From Candidatus Moraniibacteriota bacterium (GTDB taxonomy: Bacteria; Patescibacteriota; Minisyncoccia; Moranbacterales; GWC2-37-73), in contig DAOOTD010000002.1 of the NCBI GenBank assembly GCA_035390125.1, positions 105,908 to 169,907 on the forward strand: a stretch of 64,000 bases of DNA. Direction: 5' to 3'. The first letter of the stretch is position 1. Every line of letters begins with the position of its first letter. Positions 10,159 through 64,000 of the stretch are shown here, in pieces. The position numbers and the translations under genes are program-made. Below the pieces are notes generated by a model. That model ran no database searches. It had not been told where the DNA came from and saw only the letters and a list, made by a program, of their open reading frames with translations.

Positions 10159-11982
10159 ATGCTTGGAATAAACAAAAAAAATGACAAAAAACAAACTGTA
10201 AAAAGGGATCCGATTTTAGAAAGTGAGGAATTATATCAGCGTGGTGTTGCAACTATAAAAGATCTTATCGCCCCTTCTGCAATGAAGGTAAGTTCAAATT
10301 ACTTGCAAATAGGCGAAACGTTTGCCAGAACCGTTTTTGTTGTTGCCTATCCTAGATATTTGCATACAAACTGGTTTTCTCCGATTATAAACATTGATTT
10401 TTCCATGGATACTGCGATGTTTATACATCCTATTGATACAGTTGAAATATTAAAAACCCTCAGGAAAACATCAACCCAAGTGCAATCGCAGATTCACATG
10501 GAAGAACAGTCGGGAAAAATCCGAAATCCAATTTTGGAAACAGCCATTGAAGATATAGAAGATTTGCGCGATAAGCTCCAGCAAGGAACTGAAAAATTTT
10601 TCCGCTTCGGGCTCTACATGACTTTATATGCAAATAATTTGGAAGAACTTGAAAAAATACATTTGCAAATAGAAGCACTTCTCGAGGCGCAAATGGTTTA
10701 CATCAAGCCAGCGGTGTTAAAAGCTGAACAAGGTTTTTCCTCTACTTTGCCATTGGGAAATGATGAAATAGATATTGCTAATAATCTCAATACAGCACCA
10801 CTTTCTACGACATTTCCTTTTGTATCTTCAGATCTTTCATCTAATGAGGGTATTCTTTATGGGATTAATCGACACAATAACAGCCTTATTCTTTTTGACA
10901 GATTCCAAATGGAAAATGCCAATATGGTAGTTTTTTCTAAATCTGGCGGAGGGAAAAGCTATACTGTGAAACTCGAAATATTCCGTTCGCTGATGGTTGG
11001 AACCAATGTTGTTGTCATTGATCCAGAAAATGAGTACAAATATTTGTGTGAAACAGTAGGGGGAACTTTCATAAAACTTTCACTTAATTCTCCATATCAT
11101 TTGAATCCATTCGATCTTCCTAAAATTGGCGATGAAGAAGATCCTGAAGATGTTCTTAGGAGCAACATAGCCAGTCTTATAGGACTGCTTCATCTTATGC
11201 TTGGCAATGTAACTCCCGAAGAAGATTCAATTCTGGATATAGCTATTCGTGAAACATATGCGATGCGTGATATTACTGCCCGAAGCAATTTTAAGGCTCT
11301 TAATTCATCTTCTTTTCCGACCATGTCGGACCTTTATGCTGTTATTCGAAATTCAGAAGGCGGAGAATCAATAGCAAAAAGATTGGAAAAATACACAGAG
11401 GGTATTTTTGCTGGGGTGCTTAATCATACAACAAATGTACAGGTTGATAATCAAATGGTTGTCTTTAATATACGCGATCTTGAAGAACAGCTTAGGCCCA
11501 TTGCCATGTATACAGTCTTGCAGTTTATCTGGAATGAAATGCGGTCTTCACTTAAAAAAAGAATTGTAGTTGTGGATGAAGCTTGGGTTATGATGCAAAA
11601 TGATGATGCAGCATCTTTTTTATTTGGTATTGCAAAGCGTTGCAGAAAATATTATACAGGCTTAACAACAATAACTCAGGACATAGCAGATTTTATGACC
11701 TCGCGCTATGGAAAGCCGGTAGTAACTAATTCGTCATTGCAGCTGCTATTGCGTCAGTCTCCGGCAGCTATAGAAACAATTTCTGACACCTTTTTTCTAA
11801 CTGATCAGGAAAAGTTTCTCTTATTGGAAAGTGGGGTTGGAGAAGGAATTCTTTTTGCGGGAGCAAAGCATGTTGCAATAAAAGTTATTGCTTCATATCC
11901 TGAAGATCAAATCATAACATCTGATCCGCGCCAATTGATTGAAATTGAACAAGCCAAAAAAGAATTGGAAGAAGATGAATAA
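10159..11982 (+). CDS. VirB4/TraC/TrbE-family type IV secretion ATPase (ATPase-domain ORF)
   Basis: 607 aa; Walker A FSKSGGGKSY, Walker B VVVDEAW, overall CagE/TrbE/VirB4 domain order. Confidence 0.8.
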   Translation: MLGINKKNDKKQTVKRDPILESEELYQRGVATIKDLIAPSAMKVSSNYLQIGETFARTVFVVAYPRYLHTNWFSPIINIDFSMDTAMFIHPIDTVEILKTLRKTSTQVQSQIHMEEQSGKIRNPILETAIEDIEDLRDKLQQGTEKFFRFGLYMTLYANNLEELEKIHLQIEALLEAQMVYIKPAVLKAEQGFSSTLPLGNDEIDIANNLNTAPLSTTFPFVSSDLSSNEGILYGINRHNNSLILFDRFQMENANMVVFSKSGGGKSYTVKLEIFRSLMVGTNVVVIDPENEYKYLCETVGGTFIKLSLNSPYHLNPFDLPKIGDEEDPEDVLRSNIASLIGLLHLMLGNVTPEEDSILDIAIRETYAMRDITARSNFKALNSSSFPTMSDLYAVIRNSEGGESIAKRLEKYTEGIFAGVLNHTTNVQVDNQMVVFNIRDLEEQLRPIAMYTVLQFIWNEMRSSLKKRIVVVDEAWVMMQNDDAASFLFGIAKRCRKYYTGLTTITQDIADFMTSRYGKPVVTNSSLQLLLRQSPAAIETISDTFFLTDQEKFLLLESGVGEGILFAGAKHVAIKVIASYPEDQIITSDPRQLIEIEQAKKELEEDE

Positions 11983-26339: not shown

Positions 26340-27563
26340 ATGCCTAAGCGCAAAAAAATAACAGATGAAAACAAAAACCCAAGCGGCAGGCTGGGGGAAT
26401 TCGGAAGTGCTATAATGCAAATTGCTGAAGAAAAAGGCATACCGAAAAATGTTGTTATTGAAACCATAGAAGCGGCTTTAGCGGCTGCTTATAAAAAAGA
26501 TTACGGCAAGCGCGGACAAAGAATCAGGGCTGAATTCAATGAAGTTTCAGGAGAGGCTAAGTTTTTTTTAGTGAAGGATGTGGTTGATGAAACCTTGAGG
26601 GAATTTATCAAGCCGGGGGAAGAAAATGAGATAAATGAAGAGGAAGTCTCAGGAGAATTGGAAGATGGAGAAAGATTGATGCGCTACAATCCAGAGAGGG
26701 ATATTGTGCTTGAAGACGCAAAAAAAATAAAAAAGAACGCAAAAGTCGGAGATGTTATTGAAATAAAACTTGAAGATAAAAGCGAATATGGACGTGTTGC
26801 TGCCCAAACTGCCAAACAAGTCATCATACAAAGAATACGCGAAGCAGAAAGAGATTCGATGTTTTCTGAATATAAAGAAAAAGAAGGCGAAGTTATAAGC
26901 GGGACGGTACAGCGCATCGAAGGCAGAAATGTTTACATAGACCTCGGCAAGTCTGTGGGAGTTTTGTTTCCTTCAGAACAAGTTCATGGAGAAATATTCA
27001 GAATCGGGCAAAGAGTCAAGGTATATTTATATAAAGTAGAATCTGATCCTAAAGGACCCGGAATTACACTTAGCCGAACTCATGCAGATATGGTGAAAAA
27101 ACTTTTTGAGCTGGAAGTTCCTGAAATTTTTGCCGGTACAGTTGAAGTAAAATCAATCGCCCGTGAAGCTGGATCACGCACAAAAATAGCAGTTGCTTCA
27201 ACTGAAGAAGGAATAGATCCGATTGGTTCCTGTGTCGGTCAAAAGGGAATACGTGTGCAAGCTGTAATCGAAGAGCTGGGTGGAGAAAAAATAGATATTA
27301 TCGAATGGAGCGAAAAACCGGAAAAATTTATTGCAGCGTCAATCAGCCCGGCAAAAGTTATTTCTGTGGATATCGATGAGAATAAAAAAGAAGCCAAAGT
27401 TTTAGTTCCTGAAGACCAACTATCCTTGGCTATAGGAAAGCAGGGGCAAAACGTGCGCTTGGCTGCAAAATTAACCGGATGGAAAATAGATGTAATTGGG
27501 CAAGCCACTCAAAACAACGAAGAAGAACAGGAAAATATTGAAGAAGGACAGGTTGAAGAATAA
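26340..27563 (+). CDS. nusA: Transcription termination/antitermination factor NusA
   Basis: 407 aa; N-terminal NusA domain, S1 domain (…VISGTVQRIEGRNVYIDLG…), two KH domains (…GSCVGQKGIRVQAV…, …LAIGKQGQNVRLAAKLTGWKIDV), acidic C-terminus. Confidence 0.9.
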   Translation: MPKRKKITDENKNPSGRLGEFGSAIMQIAEEKGIPKNVVIETIEAALAAAYKKDYGKRGQRIRAEFNEVSGEAKFFLVKDVVDETLREFIKPGEENEINEEEVSGELEDGERLMRYNPERDIVLEDAKKIKKNAKVGDVIEIKLEDKSEYGRVAAQTAKQVIIQRIREAERDSMFSEYKEKEGEVISGTVQRIEGRNVYIDLGKSVGVLFPSEQVHGEIFRIGQRVKVYLYKVESDPKGPGITLSRTHADMVKKLFELEVPEIFAGTVEVKSIAREAGSRTKIAVASTEEGIDPIGSCVGQKGIRVQAVIEELGGEKIDIIEWSEKPEKFIAASISPAKVISVDIDENKKEAKVLVPEDQLSLAIGKQGQNVRLAAKLTGWKIDVIGQATQNNEEEQENIEEGQVEE

Positions 27564-52594: not shown

Positions 52595-53164
52595 ATGGAT
52601 GGATTTCCAAAATATAATTTTAAAGATTTACGTCAAGATGAAAAAATTATCAAAGTTCTTCACCGCAACTGGTTTTATCTTTTTCAGCAATTCTTCATTT
52701 TAATTCTAGTAGCGTCTGCTTTTGTGGCTAGTTCTTTTTTTGCTCCTGTTTTTTTTCCAAACTTTCTTGAAAAAGTTGACAAATCAGTCATTCTTTTTGC
52801 TCAAAATTTTTTTATACTTGCAATTTGGCTTTATGGATTCATGATTTGGATAGATTATTATTTCGATATTTGGATAATAACATCTGAGCGGATTATAAAT
52901 ATAGAACAAAAAGGGATGTTTTCCCGTGAAGTTAGTGAACTTAGATTCCAAAAAATCCAGGATGTTACCACGAAAGTTGTTGGATTCATACCTACTGTTC
53001 TTAATTACGGTGATGTAAGAGTTCAAACAGCAGGAGAAGAAAGGGAATTTATTTTTCTTACGATTTCTAATCCATATGATATTAAAAATCTTATAATGAG
53101 CTTGCAAAAGCAGTGTGAAGAACATTCCAAAAATGAAATAGAGGAAATGCTCAAAGCAAATTAG
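52595..53164 (+). CDS. Membrane protein with bacterial PH domain (YdbS/YdbT-like, bPH_2)
   Basis: 189 aa; two TM helices followed by …ITSERIINIEQKGMFSREVSELRFQKIQDVTTKV…GDVRVQTAGEE… typical of bPH_2/DUF304. Confidence 0.5.
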   Translation: MDGFPKYNFKDLRQDEKIIKVLHRNWFYLFQQFFILILVASAFVASSFFAPVFFPNFLEKVDKSVILFAQNFFILAIWLYGFMIWIDYYFDIWIITSERIINIEQKGMFSREVSELRFQKIQDVTTKVVGFIPTVLNYGDVRVQTAGEEREFIFLTISNPYDIKNLIMSLQKQCEEHSKNEIEEMLKAN

Positions 53165-53188: not shown

Positions 53189-55132
53189 GTGAAAACAAAA
53201 AGAAAAATAAAAATAGCATATTTTTTTTGCATACTGCTAATTATACCGGCAGCTTTTTTTGTTTTTAATTATTCATGTTTTGCCAACGAAAATCCTATAA
53301 TAAGCGCTGTGCAAACTAAAGGAAATAATGCCAACGATGATTTCATAGAAATATATAATCCAAGTTGTAATGACATTAATATCTCCGATTGGAAAATAAT
53401 AAAAAGAACGGCTTCTGGAACCGAATCATCAATAAAGGTTATAAGTCATGGAACAGTTATTAAAGCAAAAAGCTATTTTCTCTGGAGCAATTCAGGATTT
53501 TCTGAAACAGTACGAGCTGATCAGTCAACAGTATCTATCTTATCGGATAACTATAGCATTGCCTTATTTAATGACGATAAAATTACTGATTCAATAACCT
53601 GGGGAATTAATTCAAATCCATTTTTTGGGAGCTATTTTTATTCTGAAAACTTACTTAAATCCCAAGTTCTTAAAAAAGATGCGGATGGTGATTTTTCAAC
53701 GGAGATAAATTATTTACCTAAAAACTCTTCAATTGTAAATGAAGCAGAATTGTCTTTATGCAAAAAAGAAGATCCTGTGTCTGTTGAATATTCAAATAAG
53801 CTTCAAATTAGTGAGTTATTGCCTAATCCAGAAGACGGTGATGAAGAATATATTGAATTTTACAATAATTCGGATGAAAAAATTAATCTTAAGGGTTGGT
53901 CTTTACATGACGCATCAAAATCAGGCGAATATGTTTTTTTATCAGCCGATTACATGGAGCCGGAAGAATATTTTGTAATTTATAAATCAGATTTTAAATT
54001 TGCGCTAAACAATAGTGGAGATGAAAATTTAGTGCTTTTTGACCCAAATAAAAAAGATATTTTTGAAGTCTCGTATTCTGGCAGTAAAAAGGGTATTTCA
54101 TATAGCTTTGATGGGAATGAATGGCATTGGAGCAAGTTTCTGACTCCGGGAGAAGAAAATAAATTTGAAAAAATTCACAAGGGAAAGCCGGATATTGACG
54201 AAAATATATATGTGAATGTGTATGCTAATTTTAAAATTGGTAGACTTTCCAAAAAAGCTAAAGTGACATGGGACTTTGGAGACGGACATAAGAGCTATCT
54301 TAAAAAAACAAAACATAAATATAAAAAAGCTGGAAAATATGAAGGCAGTGTAAAATATTCAGAGGGCAGCGAAGACAGGATAGAAAAATTTACTATAGAA
54401 GTCGTGAAAATGAAACATCCGGAAGTTAAAATTATTTCGGTTAATGCTAATCCCATAGGTAGCGATACGGAAAATGAAACTATTACGGTAGAGAACAAAT
54501 CTAAGAAGAAAATAAACCTCAATGGCTGGAGTATAGCGACGGGCTGGAAAAAACTCATTAATCATCCTATTTCGATCGATTTTGAAATTAAAGCTGGAAA
54601 AAGCAGAGAAATTACCCGTGAAATTTCCAAATTTACTTTGAATAATACGAAAAACGAAATAGAACTTCGCTATCCGGACGGAAAAGTTGCCTATGATTTA
54701 AAATATAAAAAGAAAAATGACTCTATTAAGGAAGGAGAAATTTATACAAAAAGTAAAGGCGGATGGATATGGGTTGGTAGTAATAAGCAGGTAGAAAGCA
54801 GTAATCAGGAAGCAATAAATAGCGAGCAGGAAGATATAAATATAAATGGAAGTGATGATATGGAAAATATTTCAGAAGCAGATATTATTTCAAAGCCGAT
54901 GTTTGAAAGAGAAAATAAATTGGTTTCAAACAATAAAAAAATATTCAAAATAGAATTATCAAATAATTATCCGCGTGTTTTAGGCGAAGAAACAGTCAGA
55001 GAAATTGATGGTACTTATTTTTTCACGGCAGAACTACCAAGGCAATCTCATTACATGATTATTTTTATAAAAGATTTATTTACGGTAATAAATTTAAAAT
55101 TAAATTTTATAATAAACTTTTTCCTAAACTGA
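53189..55132 (+). CDS. Secreted lamin-tail-domain (LTD) repeat protein with PKD-like segment
   Basis: 647 aa, GTG start, signal anchor. Three LTD-like units (NPIISAVQTKGNNANDDFIEIYNPS…DWKI; ISELLPNPEDGDEEYIEFYNNSDEKINLKGWSL; KIISVNANPIGSDTENETITVENKSKKKINLNGWSI) and a PKD-like WDFGDGH motif. Confidence 0.55.
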   Translation: MKTKRKIKIAYFFCILLIIPAAFFVFNYSCFANENPIISAVQTKGNNANDDFIEIYNPSCNDINISDWKIIKRTASGTESSIKVISHGTVIKAKSYFLWSNSGFSETVRADQSTVSILSDNYSIALFNDDKITDSITWGINSNPFFGSYFYSENLLKSQVLKKDADGDFSTEINYLPKNSSIVNEAELSLCKKEDPVSVEYSNKLQISELLPNPEDGDEEYIEFYNNSDEKINLKGWSLHDASKSGEYVFLSADYMEPEEYFVIYKSDFKFALNNSGDENLVLFDPNKKDIFEVSYSGSKKGISYSFDGNEWHWSKFLTPGEENKFEKIHKGKPDIDENIYVNVYANFKIGRLSKKAKVTWDFGDGHKSYLKKTKHKYKKAGKYEGSVKYSEGSEDRIEKFTIEVVKMKHPEVKIISVNANPIGSDTENETITVENKSKKKINLNGWSIATGWKKLINHPISIDFEIKAGKSREITREISKFTLNNTKNEIELRYPDGKVAYDLKYKKKNDSIKEGEIYTKSKGGWIWVGSNKQVESSNQEAINSEQEDININGSDDMENISEADIISKPMFERENKLVSNNKKIFKIELSNNYPRVLGEETVREIDGTYFFTAELPRQSHYMIIFIKDLFTVINLKLNFIINFFLN

Positions 55133-56403: not shown

Positions 56404-56925
56404 ATGAAAAAAAAATCAAAAAATATTGAGAAATTAAGAGTTCTCGGTATCGATCCCGGATCAGCAACTGTTGGTTGGGCAGTTTTAGACGAAAAAAATG
56501 GGAATGTAGAATCTGTGGCTTATGGACACATTTCAACTTCACCCAAAAATAATACCGCAGAAAGACTTCTTGAGGTTTCTAGCGACTTAGAGCAGATAAT
56601 AAAAAAATATAAACCAGATGAAGCGTCTGTAGAAGAATTGTTTTTCTTTAAAAATGTAAAAACAGTCATGAAAGTCAGCCAGGCCAGAGGAGCTATACTC
56701 TTGACTTTGGAAAAAAATCGTGTTAACGTATGCGGTTATACTCCGCTCCAAGTCAAGCAGGCTTTAACAGGATATGGACGGGCGGAAAAAAAGCAGGTTC
56801 AATCGATGGTTAAAGAGGTATTAAAGCTTAAGAACATTCCTAAGCCAGATGATACAGCCGATGCAATTGCAATTGCTCTCTGTCATTTGAATAGTAGAAA
56901 AATGAAATCAATAAAATGTAAATAA
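56404..56925 (+). CDS. ruvC: Crossover junction endodeoxyribonuclease RuvC
   Basis: 173 aa; …VLGIDPGSATVGWAVL… RNase-H-fold catalytic Asp, …DAADAIAIA… C-terminal acidic motif. Confidence 0.9.
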   Translation: MKKKSKNIEKLRVLGIDPGSATVGWAVLDEKNGNVESVAYGHISTSPKNNTAERLLEVSSDLEQIIKKYKPDEASVEELFFFKNVKTVMKVSQARGAILLTLEKNRVNVCGYTPLQVKQALTGYGRAEKKQVQSMVKEVLKLKNIPKPDDTADAIAIALCHLNSRKMKSIKCK

Positions 56926-56978: not shown

Positions 56979-57635
56979 ATGCAAAACATAAATCCTTTTA
57001 TAAGCTACCTTGTTAATCAAGGGGTGCCTCTTGATACTGTCATCTTATTATTAATGCTGCCTATCGTTGTCACTCTCATAGCTTTTTTTCGTCAAGTTAT
57101 TGGTATTAAGGCATTTGGAATTTATACGCCAGCTATTATAACATTTGCTTTTTTAGCTATGCCACAACTCAGGTATGGCCTCGTAATTTTCATAAGTGTT
57201 ATCTTAATGGGTATGCTTATGCGCTTCATGCTTAAAAAACTGCGTATATTATATCTGCCAAGAGTTGCCATAATGCTTAGCATAATTGCTGTTGCAATTT
57301 TGATAATGCTTGGTTTTGGAGGCTCTATGCACAGAACAGGCTTAGCTTCTGTTTCAATTTTTCCTATATTGATAATGATTACAATTGTAGAAAAATTTGT
57401 TGCTACCCAAATAGAAAAAGGAAATAAAGTCGCCTTAATTCTTGCTGCAGAAACTTTAATAATTTCAATAGCCGGTTACTATTTAGCAAGCTGGCCATTT
57501 CTTATAAAAAGCATAGTAGCATTTCCGTGGTTAGTTCTTTTTACGATACCGGTCAATATATTACTTGGCAAATGGAATGGTTTAAGAATAAGCGAGTATA
57601 TAAGATTTAGAGAAGTTTTAAAAAACATAAAGTAG
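56979..57635 (+). CDS. Seven-TM membrane protein (partner of alpha-L-glutamate-ligase-like ATP-grasp)
   Basis: 218 aa with about 6-7 hydrophobic helices; stop 4 nt before the start of the ATP-grasp gene. Confidence 0.5.
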   Translation: MQNINPFISYLVNQGVPLDTVILLLMLPIVVTLIAFFRQVIGIKAFGIYTPAIITFAFLAMPQLRYGLVIFISVILMGMLMRFMLKKLRILYLPRVAIMLSIIAVAILIMLGFGGSMHRTGLASVSIFPILIMITIVEKFVATQIEKGNKVALILAAETLIISIAGYYLASWPFLIKSIVAFPWLVLFTIPVNILLGKWNGLRISEYIRFREVLKNIK

Positions 57636-57639
57636 AAAA

Positions 57640-59049
57640 ATGTTTGATTATATAAAAAATGCACATAAGTTGCTTGGCATGAATGCTCGCAATCTTGAAT
57701 ATATACGTCAATATAATCGCAAAAATGCGAAACGCCTTGCTGATGATAAAATCATGAGCAAGCGTATATTAAAAAAAGCAGGTATTCCCGTGCCAGAACT
57801 TATTGCTAAAATTAAATCAGTTGAGGAATTGGATGATTTTAACTGGGATCAATTGCCAAACTCTTTTGTTTTGAAGCCCAGCCGAGGTTTTGGTGGCGGT
57901 GGAATTTTAATTGTGTATGGAAAAAAGAAAAATAAAAGTGACATTTGGATTAAAGCTGATGGGTCTACAATCACAGTTGAAGATATTAAAAGCCATGTAC
58001 TGAACATATTAGATGGATCATTTTCACTTTCTAATCTTCCTGATGTTGCATTTTTTGAAGAAAGGCTTGCACTTCTTAAACTCTTTAAGCCCTATGCCTA
58101 CAAAGGAGTTCCTGATATTCGTGTAATTGTTTTTAACAGTATTCCTGTAATGGCAATGCTTCGTCTTCCAACCAAAGAATCAAAAGGAAAAGCTAATCTG
58201 CAACAAGGTGGAATAGGAATAGGAATAGACCTGGCATCAGGTATAACAACTACAGCAGTTTTGGGAAAAGGTAAAATTATTGACTATGTTCCAGGAACCA
58301 GACTCCTGCTTTCAGGTATAAAAATTCCTTATTGGAAAGAAATTTTGCTTTTAGCTGTCAAGGCACAGGAAATTTCTGGCATGGGATATTTAGGTGCTGA
58401 TATTGCCATTGATAGAGAAAGAGGACCAGTTTTCTTAGAGATAAATGCACGTCCAGGGCTTTCCATACAGATTGCAAATTTATCAGGATTAAGAGAGCGG
58501 CTGGAAAGAGTAAAAGGAATTAAAATCAAGTCAGCTGAAAGAGGAGTTCGTGTAGGAAGAGACCTATTTGGAGGGGAAGTCGAAGAGGAGTTGGAGGACA
58601 TTTCTGGGAGAAAAGTTATCGGTACTATAGAAAAAATAAAAATTATTTATAAAGACGGAAAAGAAATTGAAGTTGATGCCAAAATAGATACTGGAGCTAA
58701 TTCAACATCTATAGATTATGAGCTAGCAAAAGAAATTGGTTTTGGCGAAACAGTTGATGAATTTTCTAAAATAGATTTATCACAATATCAAATACTTCCA
58801 GAGAATGAATCTGAAATCAAGAAAGATATCCTAGCAAAATATAAAGAAAAAATTACAAGTCTGGAAGATGTCGCAGTTATTTTTTCTTCTAGCGGCTCAT
58901 CAATAAGACCGGTTATTAAAGTAAGTTTTATTATGGATGATATAGAAATAACATCAAAAGCAAATTTAGTAAAAAGAGAAAATCTTAAGTGTCCTGTCAT
59001 TATTGGAAAAAGAGATCTGAAGAAATTTCTAATAGATGTGAATAAATAA
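57640..59049 (+). CDS. RimK-type ATP-grasp amidoligase (alpha-L-glutamate-ligase-like) fused to C-terminal retropepsin-like aspartic peptidase domain
   Basis: 469 aa; N-terminal …MNARNLEYIRQYNRKNAKRLADDKIMSKRIL…FVLKPSRGFGGGGI… ATP-grasp. C-terminal …KIDTGANSTSID… (DTG) and a second …IIGKRDLKKF… flap-like segment of the 'putative ATP-dependent zinc protease'/retropepsin fold. Confidence 0.6.
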   Translation: MFDYIKNAHKLLGMNARNLEYIRQYNRKNAKRLADDKIMSKRILKKAGIPVPELIAKIKSVEELDDFNWDQLPNSFVLKPSRGFGGGGILIVYGKKKNKSDIWIKADGSTITVEDIKSHVLNILDGSFSLSNLPDVAFFEERLALLKLFKPYAYKGVPDIRVIVFNSIPVMAMLRLPTKESKGKANLQQGGIGIGIDLASGITTTAVLGKGKIIDYVPGTRLLLSGIKIPYWKEILLLAVKAQEISGMGYLGADIAIDRERGPVFLEINARPGLSIQIANLSGLRERLERVKGIKIKSAERGVRVGRDLFGGEVEEELEDISGRKVIGTIEKIKIIYKDGKEIEVDAKIDTGANSTSIDYELAKEIGFGETVDEFSKIDLSQYQILPENESEIKKDILAKYKEKITSLEDVAVIFSSSGSSIRPVIKVSFIMDDIEITSKANLVKRENLKCPVIIGKRDLKKFLIDVNK

Positions 59050-59054
59050 ATTAT

Positions 59055-60020
59055 ATGAAAAATAAAAAAATAAAAAATGTAGTAGTTATATATTGGGGAA
59101 ATGATTGGAATTGCAAGATACCTATTTCAAATGAAATTACCCGGCATTCATTTGAAAAATGGCATGAAATGGGCATTAAAAAAGGTATTGAGATGTATCG
59201 AGCTTCAATCAATTGGTATGATTTGCGGAAGAATGTTTTTATAAAATCCTGGGCCTTTCGGAACAAAAAATGGATAAAAATTGAAAAAAACATAAGGCCA
59301 GATCTTGTATATGATAAGGTTGGAGGAAAGCGCGACTTTAAGTCTTTTGAAAAAAAATTGCACATAGCTAAGAATGTTAAAATGTTCAATAACCCATTGT
59401 TTAGAGTGATGGTCAACAGTAAACTTTCTCAGTATGCAATTTTTGGAGAGTTTATGCCAAAATCATTTGTGGCTATGGACAAAAGCGAACTTATTCAAAT
59501 GTTTTCTAAAATAAAATCAAAAAAAATAGTTATAAAACCACTTTATGGATCTGGCGGGCACGGAATTGTTATTGATGAAAAAGAAAAAGCAATAAATAAA
59601 AAATACCAGTACCCAGTGCTTGTGCAGGAATTTATTGTTAGCGAAAAAGGAATTCCCGGTTTTTCAAAAAAGAAAGAGATTTCGGACCTGCGTTTAGTTT
59701 TTATGAATCACAAATTAAGCTATGCTCTTTCACGTATTGCCAAAAAGGGTTCTTTATTCACGAATTTACATCAGGGTGCAAGTGGAACTCTTGTTCCTGT
59801 GAAATATATACCCAAAGAAGTAGTTAAAATTGCAGAGAAAATAATTAAAAAACTAAAAATTTTCCCTGAAGCGCAATATTCCTTGGATTTTATTTTTTCA
59901 AATTCAGGAAAGCCTTATTTTGTTGAAATGAATACTACACCTGGCATAGATCTTATAACGGTTTTAGGTGACGAAAAAATTAAGCGAAAAAGCTTCGAAG
60001 ATATAATTAATTTAGCCTAA
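59055..60020 (+). CDS. Second RimK-like ATP-grasp ligase
   Basis: 321 aa; …VIKPLYGSGGHGIVI…, …VLVQEFI…, …DLRLVFMNHKLSYALSRIAKKGSLFTNLHQGASG…, …YFVEMNTTPGID… follow the ATP-grasp motif order. Confidence 0.55.
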   Translation: MKNKKIKNVVVIYWGNDWNCKIPISNEITRHSFEKWHEMGIKKGIEMYRASINWYDLRKNVFIKSWAFRNKKWIKIEKNIRPDLVYDKVGGKRDFKSFEKKLHIAKNVKMFNNPLFRVMVNSKLSQYAIFGEFMPKSFVAMDKSELIQMFSKIKSKKIVIKPLYGSGGHGIVIDEKEKAINKKYQYPVLVQEFIVSEKGIPGFSKKKEISDLRLVFMNHKLSYALSRIAKKGSLFTNLHQGASGTLVPVKYIPKEVVKIAEKIIKKLKIFPEAQYSLDFIFSNSGKPYFVEMNTTPGIDLITVLGDEKIKRKSFEDIINLA

Positions 60021-61081
60021 TGAAAAAAAACAAGCTATCTGTAGCTATAGTTGCTCCATCTTTTTCGGAAATAGGTGGTCCGGAAGTGGCTACAAAAAAC
60101 ATGGCCCATGCTCTAAAAAAAAAAGGAGTCAATGTTGTACTTTTTGCTCCGAGTGATTGGAAGATCAATACTAAACATATAGCAACATTGGAAAAAAGCA
60201 TTTGCAACATGTCTTTATCAGAAAAAATTGGAAAGGTTGAAGAGCTGAGAATAAAAAGTCAGATGGAAATTATAAATCACCAGCAAAAATTTGACATTAT
60301 ACATCTTAATTCTCAAAAAGACGCTTATTTGGTTTCTAAACATATAAAAAAACCTTGTTTGCTGACATTTCATAATAAGATTACTGAACCTATTCTATCT
60401 CAGATAAAGAAAAACGGTGTTTACGCGGTTGCCTTGTCGTCTTCTCACGGAAATAATTTGCCTGTCGATGCGGTTATAGAAAACGGAATAGAAATAAAAA
60501 AAATAAAACCTTCTTTTAAAAAAGGAAAATACCTTATGACTGTTGGAAGGCTTACTGAACCAAAGGGTATAGATATAGCTATTAAAATAGCAAATAAAGC
60601 AAATAAAAAGCTTTTAATTTTCGGACGTGTTGGGAAGTCTTTGGATAGGAAAAGATATTTTAAGCATAAAATAAAACCTTTTTTAAATGATAGAATTGTA
60701 TTTATGGGTGAAGTTTCTCAGCTTGAAATTTTCAAACATTTAAGAAAAGCTGAGGCACTGCTTTTCCCTATCAGGAGAAACATAAAAGTTTGTCCTTTAA
60801 TTATAGCTGAATCGCTTGCTTGCGGAACGCCTATTATAGGAACACCCATAAACCCAACGCCGAAAATCCTTAATAATCCTAAAATTGCCTGCTTATCTAA
60901 AAATTTAAATGTTATGGTTAAAGCCGCTAAACTAGCCGGAAGATTTGATAGGAAAAAATGCAGAGAAGTTGCAGAAAATATTTTCGACAGTTCTATTATG
61001 GCTGAAAAATATATGTCCCTGTATAAAAAAATTATTAGCAAAAAAAGATTAAGGATAATAGGTGATTTTCTTGAAAAATAA
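60020..61081 (+). CDS. GT4-family (GT-B) glycosyltransferase
   Basis: 353 aa; …LIFGRVG…, E-x7-E-like …FPIRRNIKVCPLIIAESLACGTPIIG… C-terminal nucleotide-sugar-binding motif; start overlaps the previous stop (TAATGA). Confidence 0.6.
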   Translation: MKKNKLSVAIVAPSFSEIGGPEVATKNMAHALKKKGVNVVLFAPSDWKINTKHIATLEKSICNMSLSEKIGKVEELRIKSQMEIINHQQKFDIIHLNSQKDAYLVSKHIKKPCLLTFHNKITEPILSQIKKNGVYAVALSSSHGNNLPVDAVIENGIEIKKIKPSFKKGKYLMTVGRLTEPKGIDIAIKIANKANKKLLIFGRVGKSLDRKRYFKHKIKPFLNDRIVFMGEVSQLEIFKHLRKAEALLFPIRRNIKVCPLIIAESLACGTPIIGTPINPTPKILNNPKIACLSKNLNVMVKAAKLAGRFDRKKCREVAENIFDSSIMAEKYMSLYKKIISKKRLRIIGDFLEK

Positions 61082-61149
61082 GATGCTTTATGTATAATTA
61101 AGTTAATTCGAAAAGCACCTAAATAATAAAATTTTAATTTTTTATTAAA

Positions 61150-63684
61150 ATGATACCTATATTTATACCGAACAAATTTAAAAGTATTTCCTCCCAAAAA
61201 AGATGGAAACTTGCAGGGAAAATTGCCCTCTGTGTTTTTGGGGCAATATTGATTTTTATAGCAAGTATTTTTATATATTTTGCCAAAGACATACCTAGTA
61301 CGACCTCAGTAAAAACGCGTCCTGTTATCGAGTCTACAAAAATATATGATAAAACCGGAGAGCACTTGCTTTATGATATACACGGGGAAGAAAAACGCAC
61401 TATAATACCATTTGAACAAATTCCTGATACAGTAAAATATGCTGCAATTTCTCTCGAAGATCAAGATTTTTATTCTCATCACGGAATAAAAATTTCATCT
61501 ATTGTTCGTAGTGCCCTTAAAGACATTATTAAAGGAAGTGCTGCACAGGGCGGATCTACAATTACTCAACAATTCGTGAAGAAGGCTCTTCTTACAGATG
61601 AAAAGACATTAACTAGAAAAATTAAGGAGGTTATTTTATCCATAGAAATTGAAACTAAATATTCAAAGGATGAAATTTTAGGAATGTATCTAAACCAGAT
61701 TCCTTATGGTTCAAGTGCGTATGGAATTGAAGCAGCGGCTCAAACTTTTTTTAACAAATCAGCTCGAGAAATAAATTTACCGGAAGCTGCTCTTCTTGCT
61801 TCTTTGCCAAATGCGCCGACATATTATTCTCCCTTTGGCCTGCACGTTAATGAATTAAAGGCACGTCAGGAATTGACATTGCAAAAAATGGCTGACCAGG
61901 GCTATATAACAAAAGAGCAAGCTGATGAAGCTAAAGGTGTTGATATCCTTTCGGAAATAAGTCCCAAACAAGACAATATAGCAGCTCCTCATTTTGTTAT
62001 GTATGTTAAAGATTATCTAGTTAATAAATATGGAGAACAAGTTGTTGAACAAGGAGGTTTGAAAGTTTATACAACTTTAGATTGGGATATGCAGCAAGCG
62101 GCCGAATCAGCAATTGCTGAAGGAACCGCAAAAAATATTGGAAATAATGCTTATAACGCGGCATTAGTAGCTGAAGATCCGAAAACAGGGCAAATTTTAG
62201 CTATGGTTGGATCTAAAAACTATTTCGGAAAATCAGAACCACAGGGATGCGTTTCTGGAAAAAACTGTAAATTTGAGCCTCAAGATAATGTGTCAATTCG
62301 TAATCGACAACCAGGTTCATCATTTAAACCCTATGTTTATTTAACAGCCTTTACAAAAGGATACACTCCGGAAACCCTCCTTTATGATACAGAAACAAGT
62401 TTTACTGCCAGTGACTCTTCGCAGGAAGATTATAAGCCGAAAAATTATGATGGAAAATTTCATGGTTCATTGCAAATGAAAAATACGCTAGCTATGTCGC
62501 TTAACATTCCTGCTGTAAAAACTCTTTATCTTGCTGGGGTTAAAAATTCTATACAAATTGCTAAAAACTTAGGAATAACAGGGCTTAATCAGCCAGAACG
62601 GTATGGATTATCGCTAGTATTGGGTGGCGGAGAAGTAAAACTTATCGATCATGTTAATGCCTATGCCTCACTAGCTCGTGGTGGTGTTTATAAAAAGCAG
62701 ACGTTTATAACGCGTGTACATGATAAAAATGGAAAAATTTTGGAGGAATATAAATCATCGGATGGACAACGTATCGTAGAAGAAAAATATATAGGAATGC
62801 TTGATTATATAATGTCAACAAATGATTTGCGTGCCCCGGTTTTCGGTTCAAATAACCCCTTTAGGTTTGATAATCGTCCAGTAGCTGCAAAAACAGGAAC
62901 AACAAATGAATTCAGAGATGGCTGGGCAGTAGGCTATACTCCTTCAATTGCGGTTGGAGTTTGGGCTGGAAATAATGACAATTCACCAATGAAAATGGGA
63001 GCCGATGGTATTATAGTAGCAGCTCCAATATGGAGAAATTTTATGGATAAAGTTCTGGTAAATTATCCTATAGAGCAGTTCCCTAAATATGAAAAAGAAG
63101 ATGCTGGTAAAGATATTTTAAATGGTAAGATTAATGAACAAAAAGACGTTAAAGTTTGTGAAATTCCTGGAAAAGACGATGAATACTGTTTAGCAAGCGA
63201 TGCATGTCCCGAATCATATGTTAAAAAGAAAGATTTTTCTGATGCGCATACCATATTGTATTATGTCAAAAAAGATGATCCTCGCGGAGAATATCCTGAA
63301 AATCCAAAGGATGATCCTCAATTTAAAAATTGGGAAAAAGGAGTTAAAGATTGGCTTAAAAAGAATAGTAAAAACGAGAATGAACCAGCCCCAGAGGAAA
63401 AATGCACAGAAAATGATTTTGCAGAAATAGAGCCGGAAATCTCAATTTCTGTCAGTAGGGATGGGTATGAACTTTCAATTTCAGCAAAAATTGATTCTCC
63501 TTTTAATGTTGATGAGGTAAGGTTCCTAGTGGATGGAGACGAGATTGATTCTATGAAATCAAGTCCATATAAAACATCCTATGATGCTTCCGGTAAGTCG
63601 GGATCAACATTAGAAATAAAGGCTACGGTTAAGGATGAAAAAGGCAAGACAGATTCTGTTTCTAAAAACATATCAATTCCTTAA
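61150..63684 (+). CDS. Class A penicillin-binding protein (transglycosylase + transpeptidase), PBP1A-like
   Basis: 844 aa; N-terminal TM; GT51 motifs (EDQDFYSHHGI, GGSTITQQ); transpeptidase SSFKP (SxxK), SLN, KTGTT; long C-terminal extension. Confidence 0.85.
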   Translation: MIPIFIPNKFKSISSQKRWKLAGKIALCVFGAILIFIASIFIYFAKDIPSTTSVKTRPVIESTKIYDKTGEHLLYDIHGEEKRTIIPFEQIPDTVKYAAISLEDQDFYSHHGIKISSIVRSALKDIIKGSAAQGGSTITQQFVKKALLTDEKTLTRKIKEVILSIEIETKYSKDEILGMYLNQIPYGSSAYGIEAAAQTFFNKSAREINLPEAALLASLPNAPTYYSPFGLHVNELKARQELTLQKMADQGYITKEQADEAKGVDILSEISPKQDNIAAPHFVMYVKDYLVNKYGEQVVEQGGLKVYTTLDWDMQQAAESAIAEGTAKNIGNNAYNAALVAEDPKTGQILAMVGSKNYFGKSEPQGCVSGKNCKFEPQDNVSIRNRQPGSSFKPYVYLTAFTKGYTPETLLYDTETSFTASDSSQEDYKPKNYDGKFHGSLQMKNTLAMSLNIPAVKTLYLAGVKNSIQIAKNLGITGLNQPERYGLSLVLGGGEVKLIDHVNAYASLARGGVYKKQTFITRVHDKNGKILEEYKSSDGQRIVEEKYIGMLDYIMSTNDLRAPVFGSNNPFRFDNRPVAAKTGTTNEFRDGWAVGYTPSIAVGVWAGNNDNSPMKMGADGIIVAAPIWRNFMDKVLVNYPIEQFPKYEKEDAGKDILNGKINEQKDVKVCEIPGKDDEYCLASDACPESYVKKKDFSDAHTILYYVKKDDPRGEYPENPKDDPQFKNWEKGVKDWLKKNSKNENEPAPEEKCTENDFAEIEPEISISVSRDGYELSISAKIDSPFNVDEVRFLVDGDEIDSMKSSPYKTSYDASGKSGSTLEIKATVKDEKGKTDSVSKNISIP

Positions 63685-63699
63685 TTAGTAAATATTATT

Positions 63700-64000
63700 A
63701 TGATTTCTAAGATAAAAGGTACAATTGAATTTTTGCATGACAACTATGTTGTTGTAGATGTCAACGGCATTGGCTATAAAATTTTTGTGACATCACATAC
63801 CCTCGGTATTATTGCAGGGAAAAAAGAAGCAGATTTTTATACACACACCTATGTTCGCGAAGATGCCCTAGCTTTGTATGGTTTTCTTGATATGGAAGAA
63901 CTTGAAATGTTTGAACTTCTTATTTCCATTTCGGGGATCGGTCCGAAGGCAGCTATGGGAATATTAACAATCGCCGATCCAAAAACAATAAAAACAGCTG
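63700..64000 (+). CDS. ruvA: Holliday junction DNA helicase RuvA (5' part, runs off window)
   Basis: MISKIKGTIEFLHDNYVVVDVNGIGYKIFV… OB-fold N-terminus then helix-hairpin-helix (…ISISGIGPKAAMGIL…). Confidence 0.8.
   Translation, partial: MISKIKGTIEFLHDNYVVVDVNGIGYKIFVTSHTLGIIAGKKEADFYTHTYVREDALALYGFLDMEELEMFELLISISGIGPKAAMGILTIADPKTIKTA

What the first reader, a model, noticed from the sequence alone, without database searches (positions are those of the whole stretch)
56979..61081. 7TM protein, ATP-grasp–retropepsin fusion, second ATP-grasp and GT4 cluster: a candidate peptide-tagging/modification system
Four tightly spaced or overlapping plus-strand genes:
- a 7-TM membrane protein
- a RimK/alpha-L-glutamate-ligase-like ATP-grasp fused to a C-terminal DTG retropepsin-like domain
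- a second RimK-like ATP-grasp
- a GT4 glycosyltransferase

ATP-grasp amidoligases associated with 7TM partners and retropepsin-like peptidases have been predicted computationally to add and trim amino-acid tails on a protein or metabolite. Here the ligase and peptidase are fused, a second ligase is present, and the cluster sits directly upstream of the class A PBP. That suggests a cell-envelope modification such as poly-amino-acid tailing of a membrane or wall component. The substrate and product are unknown.
Basis: partly seen in the sequence, partly recalled or inferred. Interest (0 to 1): 0.75.

Follow-up and report, generated by a model that had tools for sequence, protein, structure and literature searches.

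The report
Rlo-like peptide ligase–peptidase membrane module
A tiny "candidate phyla radiation" bacterium (Moranbacteria) carries a rearranged version of the recently described Pseudomonas Rlo envelope-stress system, with the peptide-adding and peptide-cutting enzymes fused into one protein beside a membrane partner, followed by a fast-changing set of extra ligases next to a cell-wall synthase; what it builds is still unknown.

Summary
Four co-directional, nearly abutting genes encode:
- a 7-TM protein (PF14402);
- an ATPgrasp_ST/TIGR02291-type ligase fused to a DTG retropepsin (PF05618);
- a second RimK-like ATP-grasp;
- a soluble GT4.

The first two proteins are homologous to all three parts of the proteobacterial rloA–rloB–rloC operon (Lormand 2025), but rearranged. 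The RloB-like protein lacks the periplasmic transglutaminase domain. The RloA-like peptidase has no signal peptide and is fused behind the RloC-like ligase. It keeps the catalytic Asp and the Lys/Arg/Arg residues that bind poly-glutamate in RloA.

In 32 of 32 related loci with upstream DNA, the 7-TM gene sits directly upstream of the fusion. PBP1A follows in most. The stretch between them is a variable island holding 0–4 ATP-grasp ligases from at least 9 families, and sometimes GT4, YdjC, MATCAP-like peptidase or GNAT genes. The second ligase and the GT4 are therefore accessory, not core.

Most likely this is a membrane-docked machine that adds and trims an acidic peptide, with lineage-specific decoration, probably aimed at the cell envelope. 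Substrate and product remain inferred. I rate it a new variant of a known kind, with interest about 0.6.

The parts
56979..57635 (+). P1: 7-TM membrane protein, homologous to the C-terminal 7-TM half of RloB. It has no transglutaminase domain. Predicted topology is N-out/C-in.
   Evidence: PF14402 5e-30, and NF052267 RloB matched at profile positions 305-508 only. It is 31% identical (E 7e-23) to residues 310-505 of a Legionella 'inactive transglutaminase family protein'. Seven hydrophobic segments, with a positive-inside count of 15 to 3. It lies directly upstream of the fusion gene in 32 of 32 loci with upstream DNA.
57640..59049 (+). P2: ATP-grasp ligase fused to a retropepsin (RloC-like plus RloA/RimB-like in one cytoplasmic polypeptide).
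   Evidence: 5666 database hits; the best 120 are full-length fusions at 66-100% identity.
57688..58515 (+). ATP-grasp domain of P2 (aa 17-292), ATPgrasp_ST/TIGR02291 type. It has no pre-ATP-grasp N-domain.
   Evidence: PF14397 8e-70 and TIGR02291 at 296 bits. It is 41.6% identical to the Legionella 'alpha-L-glutamate ligase-like protein'. K79, the G-rich loop 83-88, and D254, E267 and N269 are invariant. The best fold matches are ArgX, LysX and RimK.
58567..58608 (+). Acidic linker FGGEVEEELEDISG (aa 310-323). It is nearly invariant although predicted disordered.
   Evidence: The motif LFGGE[IV]EEE[IVL]E[ED][IL]SG is kept in all 33 aligned fusions, including ones only 50% identical overall. 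pLDDT is below 50 for aa 314-328. The motif is absent from stand-alone RloC-like proteins. DTG-intact representatives are richer in acidic residues here (4.0 vs 2.2).
58618..59043 (+). Retropepsin (RimB/RloA-like, PF05618) domain of P2, aa 327-468. The catalytic D350-T-G is encoded at 58687-58695.
   Evidence: PF05618 1.3e-9. The family profile hits the RloA crystal structures 9g58 and 9g59. RloA K46, D48, R114 and R137 align to K348, D350, R423 and R446, which are invariant or nearly so.
59055..60020 (+). P3: accessory RimK-like ATP-grasp ligase (island family F1). Its N-terminal 75 aa carry five invariant Trp.
   Evidence: RimK, YheCD and GSH-S models at 1e-13 to 1e-14, with no equivalog reached. 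The only solved relatives by sequence are RimK (7qys, 1e-9). K161, D278, E291 and N293 are invariant. Present in only some related loci.
60020..61081 (+). P4: accessory soluble GT4 glycosyltransferase. Its start overlaps the P3 stop codon.
   Evidence: PF00534 4e-16 and PF13439. The nearest solved relative is glucosylsucrose synthase 7fg9 (4e-25, full length), followed by tetrahydrobiopterin glucosyltransferase and BshA. An ortholog is present in 7 related loci, always directly after an F1 ligase.
61150..63684 (+). Class A PBP (PBP1A). It is a conserved downstream neighbour, probably with its own promoter (61071-61098). It is not shown to be part of the system.
   Evidence: Transgly 1e-59 plus Transpeptidase 2e-21. 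Found downstream in 19 of the 34 genome loci and in L035, L037 and L038. Promoter-like site scoring 11/12.

Best explanation
The core is a two-protein, membrane-docked 'add-and-trim' peptide machine of the Rlo type.

- P1 is the 7-TM half of RloB. It sits in the membrane with its C-terminus and basic loops in the cytoplasm, and partners with P2.
- The N-terminal ATP-grasp of P2 is RloC-like. It uses ATP to add amino acids to a carboxylate. The most likely reaction is addition of L-glutamate to build an alpha-linked acidic chain, as RimK does.
- The C-terminal retropepsin of P2 presumably acts as a dimer. It cuts acidic (poly-Glu-like) chains, either to limit their length or to release them.
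- Because the peptidase is fused to the ligase and has no signal peptide, trimming happens in the cytoplasm, as with RimK-RimB. In Pseudomonas Rlo it happens in the periplasm.
- P3 (a RimK-like ligase) and the GT4 form an accessory sub-module that extends or decorates the product. They belong to a variable island whose content differs between near relatives.
- The product is probably passed to, or acts on, the cell envelope.

Shown here: the homology of every part, intact catalytic and poly-Glu-binding residues, invariant 7-TM/fusion pairing, natural 7TM::ligase fusions, island variability, and PBP1A synteny.

Inferred: glutamate as the monomer, the acceptor, export through or by the 7-TM protein, and the envelope destination.
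For: 1. All three Rlo components are homologous to P1 and P2.
- NCBIfam RloB, TIGR02291 and RloA1-3 models all hit.
- Against a canonical Legionella three-gene operon (Zn_protease | Transglut_i_TM+7TM | ATPgrasp_ST), identities are 31% (E 7e-23), 41.6% (E 4e-55) and 26% (E 3e-6).

2. The peptidase looks active and specific for acidic chains.
- The residues that coordinate poly-Glu in RloA, and that are needed in vivo (K46, R114, R137, with catalytic D48; PMC12239564), align to K348, R423, R446 and D350.
- These are invariant or nearly so in 28 homologs.
- They co-vary with the DTG motif across 99 diverse fusions. R423 and R446 are each kept in 32 of 37 DTG-intact sequences and mostly lost in DTG-less ones.

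3. The ligase is intact and of the RimK/LysX/ArgX structural class.

4. Coupling to the membrane.
- The 7-TM gene is adjacent in 32 of 32 loci.
- 7TM_transglut::ATPgrasp_ST single-chain fusions exist: P0259, P0269 and a Halobacterium ORF.
- The predicted N-out/C-in topology fits those fusions.

5. The add-and-trim theme recurs in relatives.
- Fusions or neighbours with MATCAP/DUF1704 carboxypeptidase-like domains, extra ATP-grasps, YdjC and GNAT occur.
- In MATCAP fusions the DTG is usually degenerate: intact in 8 of 50 long forms against 29 of 49 short forms, p = 1e-5. This suggests one peptidase substitutes for the other.

6. Hints of an envelope link.
- The whole block from the 7-TM gene to PBP1A is inserted between ruvC and ruvA.
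- Island content turns over between relatives whose core protein is 75-97% identical to the window's. This pattern is typical of surface-structure loci.
- Pseudomonas rlo mutants show beta-lactam sensitivity, shape defects and hypo-osmotic lethality that is suppressed by deleting rloB or rloC.
Against: - No substrate or product is identified. Within the window the only acidic C-termini are a TraG-like ATPase and NusA, and neither is compelling.
- The amino-acid specificity of P2 and P3 cannot be read from sequence.
- NCBIfam family cutoffs are not reached: TIGR02291 296 against 314, RloB 87 against 900, RloA3 31 against 210.
- A cytoplasmic peptidase differs from the secreted RloA, so the Pseudomonas genetics may not transfer.
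- PBP1A seems to have its own promoter, lies on the opposite strand in L007, and sits in a generally syntenic small genome. Adjacency may therefore be historical.
- The 7-TM model was too poor (pLDDT 55) to test a transporter-like fold.
- The correlation between the acidic linker and the DTG motif is not corrected for phylogeny.
Confidence: 0.6

Rival explanations
1. Peptidoglycan precursor tailoring. The ligases add side-chain or cross-bridge residues to the lipid II stem peptide at the inner face of the membrane, as the ATP-grasp D-aspartate ligase does in enterococci. The 7-TM protein holds the lipid-linked substrate. The variable ligase island gives lineage-specific bridges that the adjacent PBP1A cross-links.
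For: - PBP1A is the conserved downstream neighbour, and the whole block is inserted between ruvC and ruvA.
- The number and type of ligases vary between species, much as cross-bridge chemistry does.
- Rlo mutants in Pseudomonas have wall-related phenotypes.
- The ATP-grasp fold also matches Ddl.
Against: - There is no similarity above noise to known PG ligases.
- A near relative has a FemAB-family bridge transferase close by, which could already fill that role (L035).
- A poly-Glu-type endopeptidase and a MATCAP-like carboxypeptidase have no obvious place in bridge synthesis.
- L029 has no extra ligase at all.
Confidence: 0.15
2. Cytoplasmic protein tailing of the RimK-RimB kind. P2 adds and removes glutamate tails on a cytosolic protein such as ribosomal protein S6, and the 7-TM protein acts only as a membrane sensor or regulator of ligase activity.
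For: - The peptidase is cytoplasmic and physically coupled to the ligase, as RimB binds RimK.
- The fold and sequence relatives are RimK, LysX and ArgX, all of which extend protein C-termini.
Against: - P2 scores 61 bits on the RimK family model against a cutoff of 143, but 296 bits on the RloC-type model.
- The invariant membrane partner and the 7TM::ligase fusions argue for chemistry at the membrane.
- A variable island of ligases, GT4, YdjC and GNAT is hard to reconcile with one housekeeping protein target.
Confidence: 0.12
3. Synthesis of a soluble small (glyco)peptide metabolite, such as an osmolyte or storage compound. GT4 glycosylates a small acceptor and the ligases add amino acids, following a logic like bacillithiol or mycothiol synthesis (glycosyltransfer, deacetylation, ligation, acetylation). 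The 7-TM protein acts as exporter or importer.
For: - The nearest solved relatives of the GT4 all act on small soluble acceptors: sucrose, tetrahydrobiopterin and L-malate.
- YdjC deacetylase-like and GNAT genes occur in the island or fused to the core.
- The Rlo phenotype is osmotic.
Against: - GT4 and YdjC are present in only a minority of loci, so they cannot define the core product.
- The acceptor-side Tyr18 of glucosylsucrose synthase is Ile here.
- The poly-Glu-binding residues of the peptidase imply a chain of about 8 residues rather than a dipeptide.
Confidence: 0.1

Closest known systems
rloA-rloB-rloC operon of Pseudomonas aeruginosa (Lormand et al., mBio 2025, PMC12239564). The same layout is found on Legionella adelaidensis plasmid 5 (L039).
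   Same: - The same three domain families are encoded together: PF05618 retropepsin, PF14402 7-TM and PF14397/TIGR02291 ATP-grasp.
- The catalytic Asp and the poly-Glu-coordinating Lys/Arg/Arg are conserved.
- The likely logic is the same: the ligase and membrane protein make something, and the peptidase degrades it.
   Different: - The peptidase has no signal peptide and is fused behind the ligase, so it is cytoplasmic, not secreted.
- The membrane protein lacks the periplasmic inactive transglutaminase domain (218 aa against 508 aa).
- Gene order is 7TM then ligase::peptidase, instead of A-B-C.
- A variable island of further ligases follows, then PBP1A.
- The host is Patescibacteria, whereas RloB was reported as 96% proteobacterial.
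- NCBIfam cutoffs are not reached.
RimK-RimB (S6 poly-alpha-L-glutamate ligase and its retropepsin-like partner)
   Same: - A cytoplasmic ATP-grasp ligase is physically coupled to a cytoplasmic retropepsin-like peptidase that cuts Glu tails.
- RimK is the nearest solved relative of P3 and among the best fold matches of P2.
   Different: - P2 and P3 fall well below the RimK family cutoff (61 and 49 bits against 143).
- P2 lacks the RimK N-terminal pre-ATP-grasp domain.
- RimK-RimB has no obligate 7-TM partner.
- Here the coupling is a covalent fusion rather than a complex.
Tubulin tyrosination/glutamylation cycle (TTL/TTLL ATP-grasp ligases with the MATCAP carboxypeptidase). This is an analogy only.
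   Same: - ATP-grasp ligases add residues to acidic tails and dedicated peptidases remove them.
- Relatives of P2 carry a MATCAP (PF08014) domain fused to the fusion protein or encoded next to it.
   Different: - It belongs to a different domain of life and has a different target.
- The window itself has no MATCAP domain.
- The similarity is at the level of domain families only.
Amidoligase gene-neighbourhood predictions of Iyer, Abhiman, Burroughs and Aravind (Mol Biosyst 2009), the source of the Pfam names ATPgrasp_ST and 7TM_transglut
   Same: The association of this ATP-grasp with the 7-TM/transglutaminase protein and a pepsin-like peptidase was predicted computationally. This rests on my memory and on the Pfam descriptions.
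   Different: The paper could not be read here. I do not know that the CPR fusion, the variable ligase island or the PBP1A linkage were described there.

Membership tests
Rlo system (RloA/RloB/RloC) | RloC: cytoplasmic ATP-grasp of the alpha-L-glutamate-ligase-like family (TIGR02291 / PF14397) | tested here: inconclusive
   TIGR02291 scores 296 bits, just under the 314.2 cutoff. PF14397 scores 235.6 bits against a cutoff of 31.4. P2 is 41.6% identical to the ligase of a canonical three-gene operon. I did not verify that P. aeruginosa RloC itself belongs to TIGR02291.
Rlo system (RloA/RloB/RloC) | [quoted passage not shown] | tested here: not met
   Only the 7-TM half is present. NF052267 is matched at profile positions 305-508 of 508, at 87 bits against a cutoff of 900. 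There is no PF14400 hit.
Rlo system (RloA/RloB/RloC) | RloA: secreted retropepsin-like peptidase with an N-terminal signal peptide | tested here: not met
   The retropepsin domain is internal (aa 327-468), behind an ATP-dependent ligase. P2 has no hydrophobic N-terminus. RloA1-3 models score 25-31 bits against cutoffs of 210-280.
Rlo system (RloA/RloB/RloC) | Retropepsin catalytic DTG and poly-Glu-coordinating K46/R114/R137 | tested here: met
   K348, D350, R423 and R446 align to these residues in 9g58 and are invariant or nearly so.
Rlo system (RloA/RloB/RloC) | Loss-of-function phenotypes (hypo-osmotic lethality of the peptidase-less mutant, suppressed by loss of B or C) | not testable with these tools
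   Needs genetics. The organism is uncultured.
RimK family alpha-L-glutamate ligase (TIGR00768) with RimB | Family-level sequence match, the RimK N-terminal pre-ATP-grasp domain, and S6 as substrate | tested here: not met
   P2 scores 61 bits and P3 49 bits against a cutoff of 143. Neither has a Rimk_N hit. The substrate was not testable.
   Ddl models give at most 28 bits against cutoffs of 243-310. GshB gives 52 bits against 272 for P3 and 15 bits for P2.
GT4 retaining glycosyltransferases (GT-B fold) | An N-terminal Glyco_transf_4 domain plus a C-terminal Glycos_transf_1 domain | tested here: met
   PF13439 at aa 18-121 and PF00534 at aa 158-297. Full-length alignment to the GT4 glucosylsucrose synthase 7fg9 at 4e-25. 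Donor and acceptor were not testable.

The most novel reading that the evidence does not exclude
The stretch between the conserved core (7-TM protein plus ligase::peptidase) and PBP1A may be a serotype-like cassette locus. In it, interchangeable stand-alone ATP-grasp ligases, together with GT4, YdjC, MATCAP-like and GNAT enzymes, would assemble a lineage-specific (glyco)peptide without a template or an NRPS. That product would sit on the wall or membrane of ultra-small Patescibacteria. It would be a new kind of variable surface determinant, possibly involved in host attachment or phage evasion. It would also point to the unknown product of the Rlo systems of pathogens.
Probability: 0.2. Interest if true: 0.85.

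Novelty: new variant of a known kind. Interest (0 to 1): 0.6.

Why it matters
**The open question.** The Rlo system affects beta-lactam resistance, biofilm formation, cell shape and osmotic survival in Pseudomonas, and it is strongly induced by cell-wall stress in Vibrio. Its substrate and product are unknown.

**What the Patescibacteria version adds.**
- It shows which parts are indispensable: the 7-TM half and the ligase are always paired, and are even fused in archaea.
- It shows that the peptidase can work on the cytoplasmic side.
- It shows that the transglutaminase domain is dispensable.
- It ties the module physically to a class A PBP across a whole phylum-level lineage.

**The variable island.** The ligases, peptidases and sugar-modifying genes in the island suggest that the product is a tailored peptide rather than a fixed protein tag.

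**Conservation.** In genomes of about 1 Mb that have shed most biosynthesis, the core protein is as well conserved as the neighbouring housekeeping genes. P2 is 61-73% identical across the Moranbacteria-type loci, similar to YebC, RuvC and PBP1A. It is therefore probably important for these organisms.

Tried and rejected
- **7-TM structure.** The AlphaFold2 model of the 7-TM protein was too poor to use (mean pLDDT 55.5). I ran no fold search on it, so the idea of a transporter-like fold stays untested.
- **Iyer et al. 2009** (PMC3268129) is not held in the library. What I say about it rests on memory and on Pfam descriptions.
- **Encoded acidic-tail substrates in the window.** The search found only a TraG-like ATPase and NusA. 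No small ORF or acidic-tail gene lies in or next to the cluster. I rejected these as evidence.
- **RNA genes.** tRNA and Rfam scans of 50-64 kb found nothing.
- **Promoter and terminator scans** were not above shuffled expectation overall (33 found against 34.3 expected). I use only the single 11/12 site, and only as a hint.
- **Literature.** Searches for RimK or ATP-grasp in Patescibacteria, and for DUF1704 or MATCAP with ATP-grasp, found no prior description.
- **Cluster-member look-up** gave almost no taxonomy for the diverse fusions.
- **Linker as part of the RloC family.** I considered that the acidic linker simply belongs to the RloC family. I rejected this because stand-alone RloC-like proteins lack it.
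- **Self-cleavage or pseudo-substrate role of the linker.** This is attractive, because RloA cuts internal Glu runs. However, RloA needs 8 or more consecutive Glu and the linker has at most three in a row. It remains an unexplained conserved motif.
- **Cyanophycin synthetase, the PgsB/CapB poly-gamma-glutamate system and D-Ala-D-Ala ligase.** I considered and rejected these as identities. Cyanophycin synthetase and Ddl gave only weak partial hits, and PgsB/CapB gave no hit at all.

Full report
**1.

The window carries four plus-strand ORFs at exactly the stated coordinates:
- P1, 56979-57635, 218 aa
- P2, 57640-59049, 469 aa
- P3, 59055-60020, 321 aa
- P4, 60020-61081, 353 aa

They are separated by 4 nt, 5 nt and a 1-nt overlap. 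No terminator-like site lies inside the block on the + strand. The best promoter-like match in the region (11/12, at 61071-61098) sits just before the next gene. That gene is a class A PBP with Transgly and Transpeptidase domains.

- P1 matches PF14402 7TM_transglut at 5e-30.
- P2 matches PF14397 ATPgrasp_ST at 8e-70, TIGR02291 at 296 bits (cutoff 314), and PF05618 at 3.8e-8 (1.3e-9 for the domain alone). It has an AKIDTGA motif.
- P3 matches generic RimK, YheCD and GSH-S ATP-grasp models at about 1e-14.
- P4 has Glyco_transf_4 and Glycos_transf_1 domains.

P1 has seven hydrophobic segments. Fifteen Lys/Arg lie on one side and three on the other, which gives an N-out/C-in topology. P2, P3 and P4 have no membrane or signal segment.

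The organism is a Candidatus Moranbacteria (Patescibacteria/CPR). Identical proteins occur in NCBI MAG records under generic names.

**2. What it is related to**

NCBIfam returned partial hits of P1 to RloB, an 'osmotic stress tolerance membrane protein', and of the P2 C-terminus to RloA1-3, 'retropepsin-like aspartic peptidases'.

These names come from Lormand et al. 2025 (PMC12239564). In P. aeruginosa:
- RloA, RloA2 and RloA3 are secreted retropepsins. They cleave runs of 8 or more glutamates, and they use K46, R114 and R137 around the catalytic D48.
- The triple mutant dies in low-salt medium, is beta-lactam sensitive and is misshapen.
- These defects are suppressed by deleting rloB (inactive transglutaminase plus 7 TM) or rloC (cytoplasmic ATP-grasp).
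- The product of RloB/RloC is unknown.

I located a canonical three-gene operon of this kind on Legionella adelaidensis plasmid 5. It encodes a Zn_protease of 152 aa, a Transglut_i_TM+7TM_transglut protein of 508 aa, and an ATPgrasp_ST 'alpha-L-glutamate ligase-like protein' of 314 aa. I compared it directly with the window:
- P1 is 31% identical (E 7e-23) to residues 310-505 of the membrane protein.
- The P2 ligase domain is 41.6% identical to the ligase (E 4e-55).
- The P2 C-terminus is 26% identical to the peptidase (E 3e-6).

So P1 and P2 together contain all three Rlo parts, rearranged. The transglutaminase domain is missing, and the peptidase is fused behind the ligase without a signal peptide.

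**3. Are the enzymes intact?**

A profile of 28 P2 homologs hits the RloA crystal structures 9g58 and 9g59. In that alignment RloA K46, D48, R114 and R137 correspond to P2 K348, D350, R423 and R446. All are invariant or nearly so.

I also examined 99 diverse fusion representatives, taken from a search of 1.84 billion cluster representatives (2226 hits at E ≤ 1e-3, 447 at ≤ 1e-30). In these:
- D[TS]G is intact in 37.
- R423 and R446 are each kept in 32 of those 37.
- Both are mostly lost where DTG is lost.

The ligase keeps the ATP-grasp Lys (K79), the Gly-rich loop and the Mg ligands D254, E267 and N269. The AlphaFold2 model (mean pLDDT 74.7) matches ArgX, LysX and RimK best, then Ddl. ArgX, LysX and RimK all extend C-terminal carboxylates of proteins.

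P3 keeps the equivalent residues. By sequence, its only solved relatives are RimK proteins.

Neither ligase approaches the Ddl or GshB family cutoffs.

**4. Conservation and context**

A scan of one genome per species returned 34 loci. Most are Moranbacteria. There is also a Parcubacteria locus, a Minisyncoccota locus and two MAGs labelled Saccharibacteria.
- The 7-TM gene lies immediately upstream of the fusion in all 32 loci that have upstream DNA.
- YebC and RuvC precede it.
- PBP1A follows in 19 loci.

Four closer relatives show the full frame: RuvB, a bPH_2 protein, an LTD protein, YebC, RuvC, then [7TM, fusion, island], then PBP1A and RuvA. In the window RuvA starts at 63700. The block from the 7-TM gene to PBP1A is therefore inserted between ruvC and ruvA.

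Between the fusion and PBP1A lies a variable island.
- It holds 0-4 genes of about 300 aa. Those I tested are ATP-grasp ligases, with RimK domain E-values down to 7e-39, though some are weak.
- The island genes fall into at least 9 sequence families.
- Depending on the locus it also holds a GT4, a YdjC-like deacetylase, a MATCAP/DUF1704-like peptidase, a GNAT, a DUF3541 protein, or unknown proteins of 613-639 aa.

Island content changes among relatives whose core protein is 97, 81, 77 and 75% identical to the window's:
- 97%: the same pair as the window (P3-type ligase plus GT4).
- 81%: three ligases.
- 77%: two ligases plus an unknown protein.
- 75%: ligase, GT4, YdjC and MATCAP.

P3 belongs to family F1. 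The GT4 (family F2) is present in 7 related loci besides the window, always directly after an F1 ligase. F1 ligases often occur without it. One locus, L029, has no extra ligase.

So the conserved system is P1 plus P2. P3 and P4 are an accessory pair.

**5. Other architectures of the same parts**

Among the diverse representatives the ligase-retropepsin fusion is further fused to other domains:
- MATCAP, in many proteins of about 780-800 aa and in the 956-aa protein of L028;
- YdjC (P0122);
- a second ATP-grasp (P0149).

The ligase also occurs fused behind the 7-TM domain, in P0259, P0269 and an unannotated 584-aa ORF on a Halobacterium plasmid. It also occurs fused in front of a transglutaminase core (P0253).

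The 7TM::ligase fusions argue directly for a physical partnership, and they agree with the predicted cytoplasmic C-terminus of P1.

In long fusions (≥640 aa, mostly MATCAP-containing) the DTG is usually degenerate: it is intact in 8 of 50 long forms against 29 of 49 short forms (Fisher p = 1e-5). This suggests that one peptidase replaces the other. The window protein is of the short form with an intact retropepsin.

**6. An unexplained detail**

The 14-residue linker FGGEVEEELEDISG (aa 310-323) is almost invariant in all 33 aligned fusions, down to 50% overall identity. Yet it is predicted disordered, and stand-alone RloC-like proteins lack it. It carries more acidic residues where the DTG is intact (4.0 against 2.2, p = 5e-7, not corrected for phylogeny).

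It could be a docking element, a pseudo-substrate or a processing site. However, RloA needs 8 or more consecutive Glu, so I do not claim self-cleavage.

**7. The GT4**

Its nearest solved relative is the cyanobacterial glucosylsucrose synthase 7fg9 (E 4e-25, full length; PMC9909042). Next come tetrahydrobiopterin glucosyltransferase and BshA, all of which act on small soluble acceptors. The acceptor-side Tyr18 of that enzyme is Ile here, while Arg179 is kept.

P3 has five invariant Trp in its N-terminal 75 residues. This would suit a sugar-bearing substrate, but that is speculation.

**8. Most likely mechanism (confidence 0.6)**

- P1 anchors or partners P2 at the inner face of the membrane.
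- The P2 ligase builds or extends an acidic peptide, probably alpha-Glu, using ATP.
- The fused retropepsin trims or releases that peptide in the cytoplasm.
- P3 and the GT4 add lineage-specific residues or sugar.
- The product goes to, or acts on, the envelope.

Shown here: homology of each part, intact active-site and substrate-binding residues, the invariant pairing and natural fusions, island variability, and PBP1A synteny. Inferred: the monomer, the acceptor, export and the destination.

Rival explanations:
- tailoring of the lipid II or peptidoglycan peptide (0.15);
- RimK-RimB-like tailing of a cytosolic protein, with the 7-TM protein as regulator (0.12);
- a soluble glycopeptide or osmolyte (0.10).

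Evidence for and against each is given in the rival entries.

**9. Known or new?**

The domain association was predicted computationally in 2009 (from my memory; the paper was not readable). The proteobacterial system was studied genetically in 2025.

I found no description of the following:
- the Patescibacteria layout, a 7-TM protein without transglutaminase plus a ligase::peptidase fusion;
- its variants with MATCAP, YdjC or a second ligase;
- the variable ligase island;
- the conserved insertion together with PBP1A.

The 2025 paper reports RloB as 96% proteobacterial. Strict membership of the Rlo system fails on two defining features, the secreted peptidase and the transglutaminase domain. 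I therefore file this as a new variant of a known kind, not as a member.

**10. Verdict**

- The finding is real and conserved, and it was correctly read at the domain level.
The add-and-trim peptide system is well supported. 'Four-gene system' should be corrected to a two-gene core plus a variable accessory island. The envelope target is plausible but unproven.
- Interest is 0.6. It is not a shock to a specialist, but it is a useful and widely distributed natural variant that could make the unknown Rlo chemistry testable. It also hints at template-free, cassette-like peptide diversification in ultra-small bacteria.

Noticed in passing
window 56404-56925 (RuvC) and 63700-end (RuvA N-terminus); L035, L037, L038: ruvC and ruvA are usually neighbours. 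Here they are separated by the whole block from the 7-TM gene to PBP1A. RuvB, a bPH_2 membrane protein, an LTD protein and YebC lie upstream. The same frame is kept in relatives.
   Followed up: partly
L035 9409-10389: A FemAB-family protein (tRNA-dependent peptidoglycan bridge transferase type) lies about 1.2 kb past PBP1A-RuvA in the relative whose core protein is 97% identical. The matching position in the window's genome is beyond its end. This bears on the peptidoglycan-tailoring rival explanation.
   Followed up: no
L040 4164-5918 (Halobacterium sp. DL1 plasmid CP007061.1): An unannotated 584-aa ORF in an archaeal plasmid is a 7TM_transglut::ATPgrasp_ST fusion (2.8e-24 and 1.6e-59). The record lists no gene there.
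   Followed up: partly
P0134-P0234 representatives: Many fusions of about 780-800 aa combine ligase, retropepsin and MATCAP domains, and most have a degenerate DTG (DTS, NTT, DPT and others). The retropepsin domain appears to have become a non-catalytic spacer where a MATCAP-like peptidase is present. One of them (P0134, EKD49309.1) is named 'ketopantoate hydroxymethyltransferase' in NCBI, which looks like a misannotation.
   Followed up: partly
window 58567-58608: The acidic linker FGGEVEEELEDISG between ligase and peptidase is nearly invariant across the family although predicted disordered. Its role is unexplained.
   Followed up: partly
window 59055-59280 (P3 aa 1-75): P3 has five invariant tryptophans (W18, W36, W54, W66, W73) in its N-terminal substrate-side region. 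This may indicate a carbohydrate-bearing substrate, given that a GT4 gene, when present, always directly follows this ligase family.
   Followed up: no
window 53189-55132 and 52595-53164: A 647-aa protein has three lamin-tail domains and a PKD domain, with an N-terminal hydrophobic segment, so it is probably a surface protein. It is preceded by a bPH_2 membrane protein. Both are conserved upstream in relatives (L038).
   Followed up: no
window 10159-11982 and 26340-27563: A TraG-like P-loop ATPase (type IV secretion/conjugation type) ends in ...KKELEEDE, and NusA ends in ...EEGQVEE. These are the only acidic C-termini found among the window's ORFs of 40 aa or more. Nothing links them to the ligases.
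   Followed up: partly
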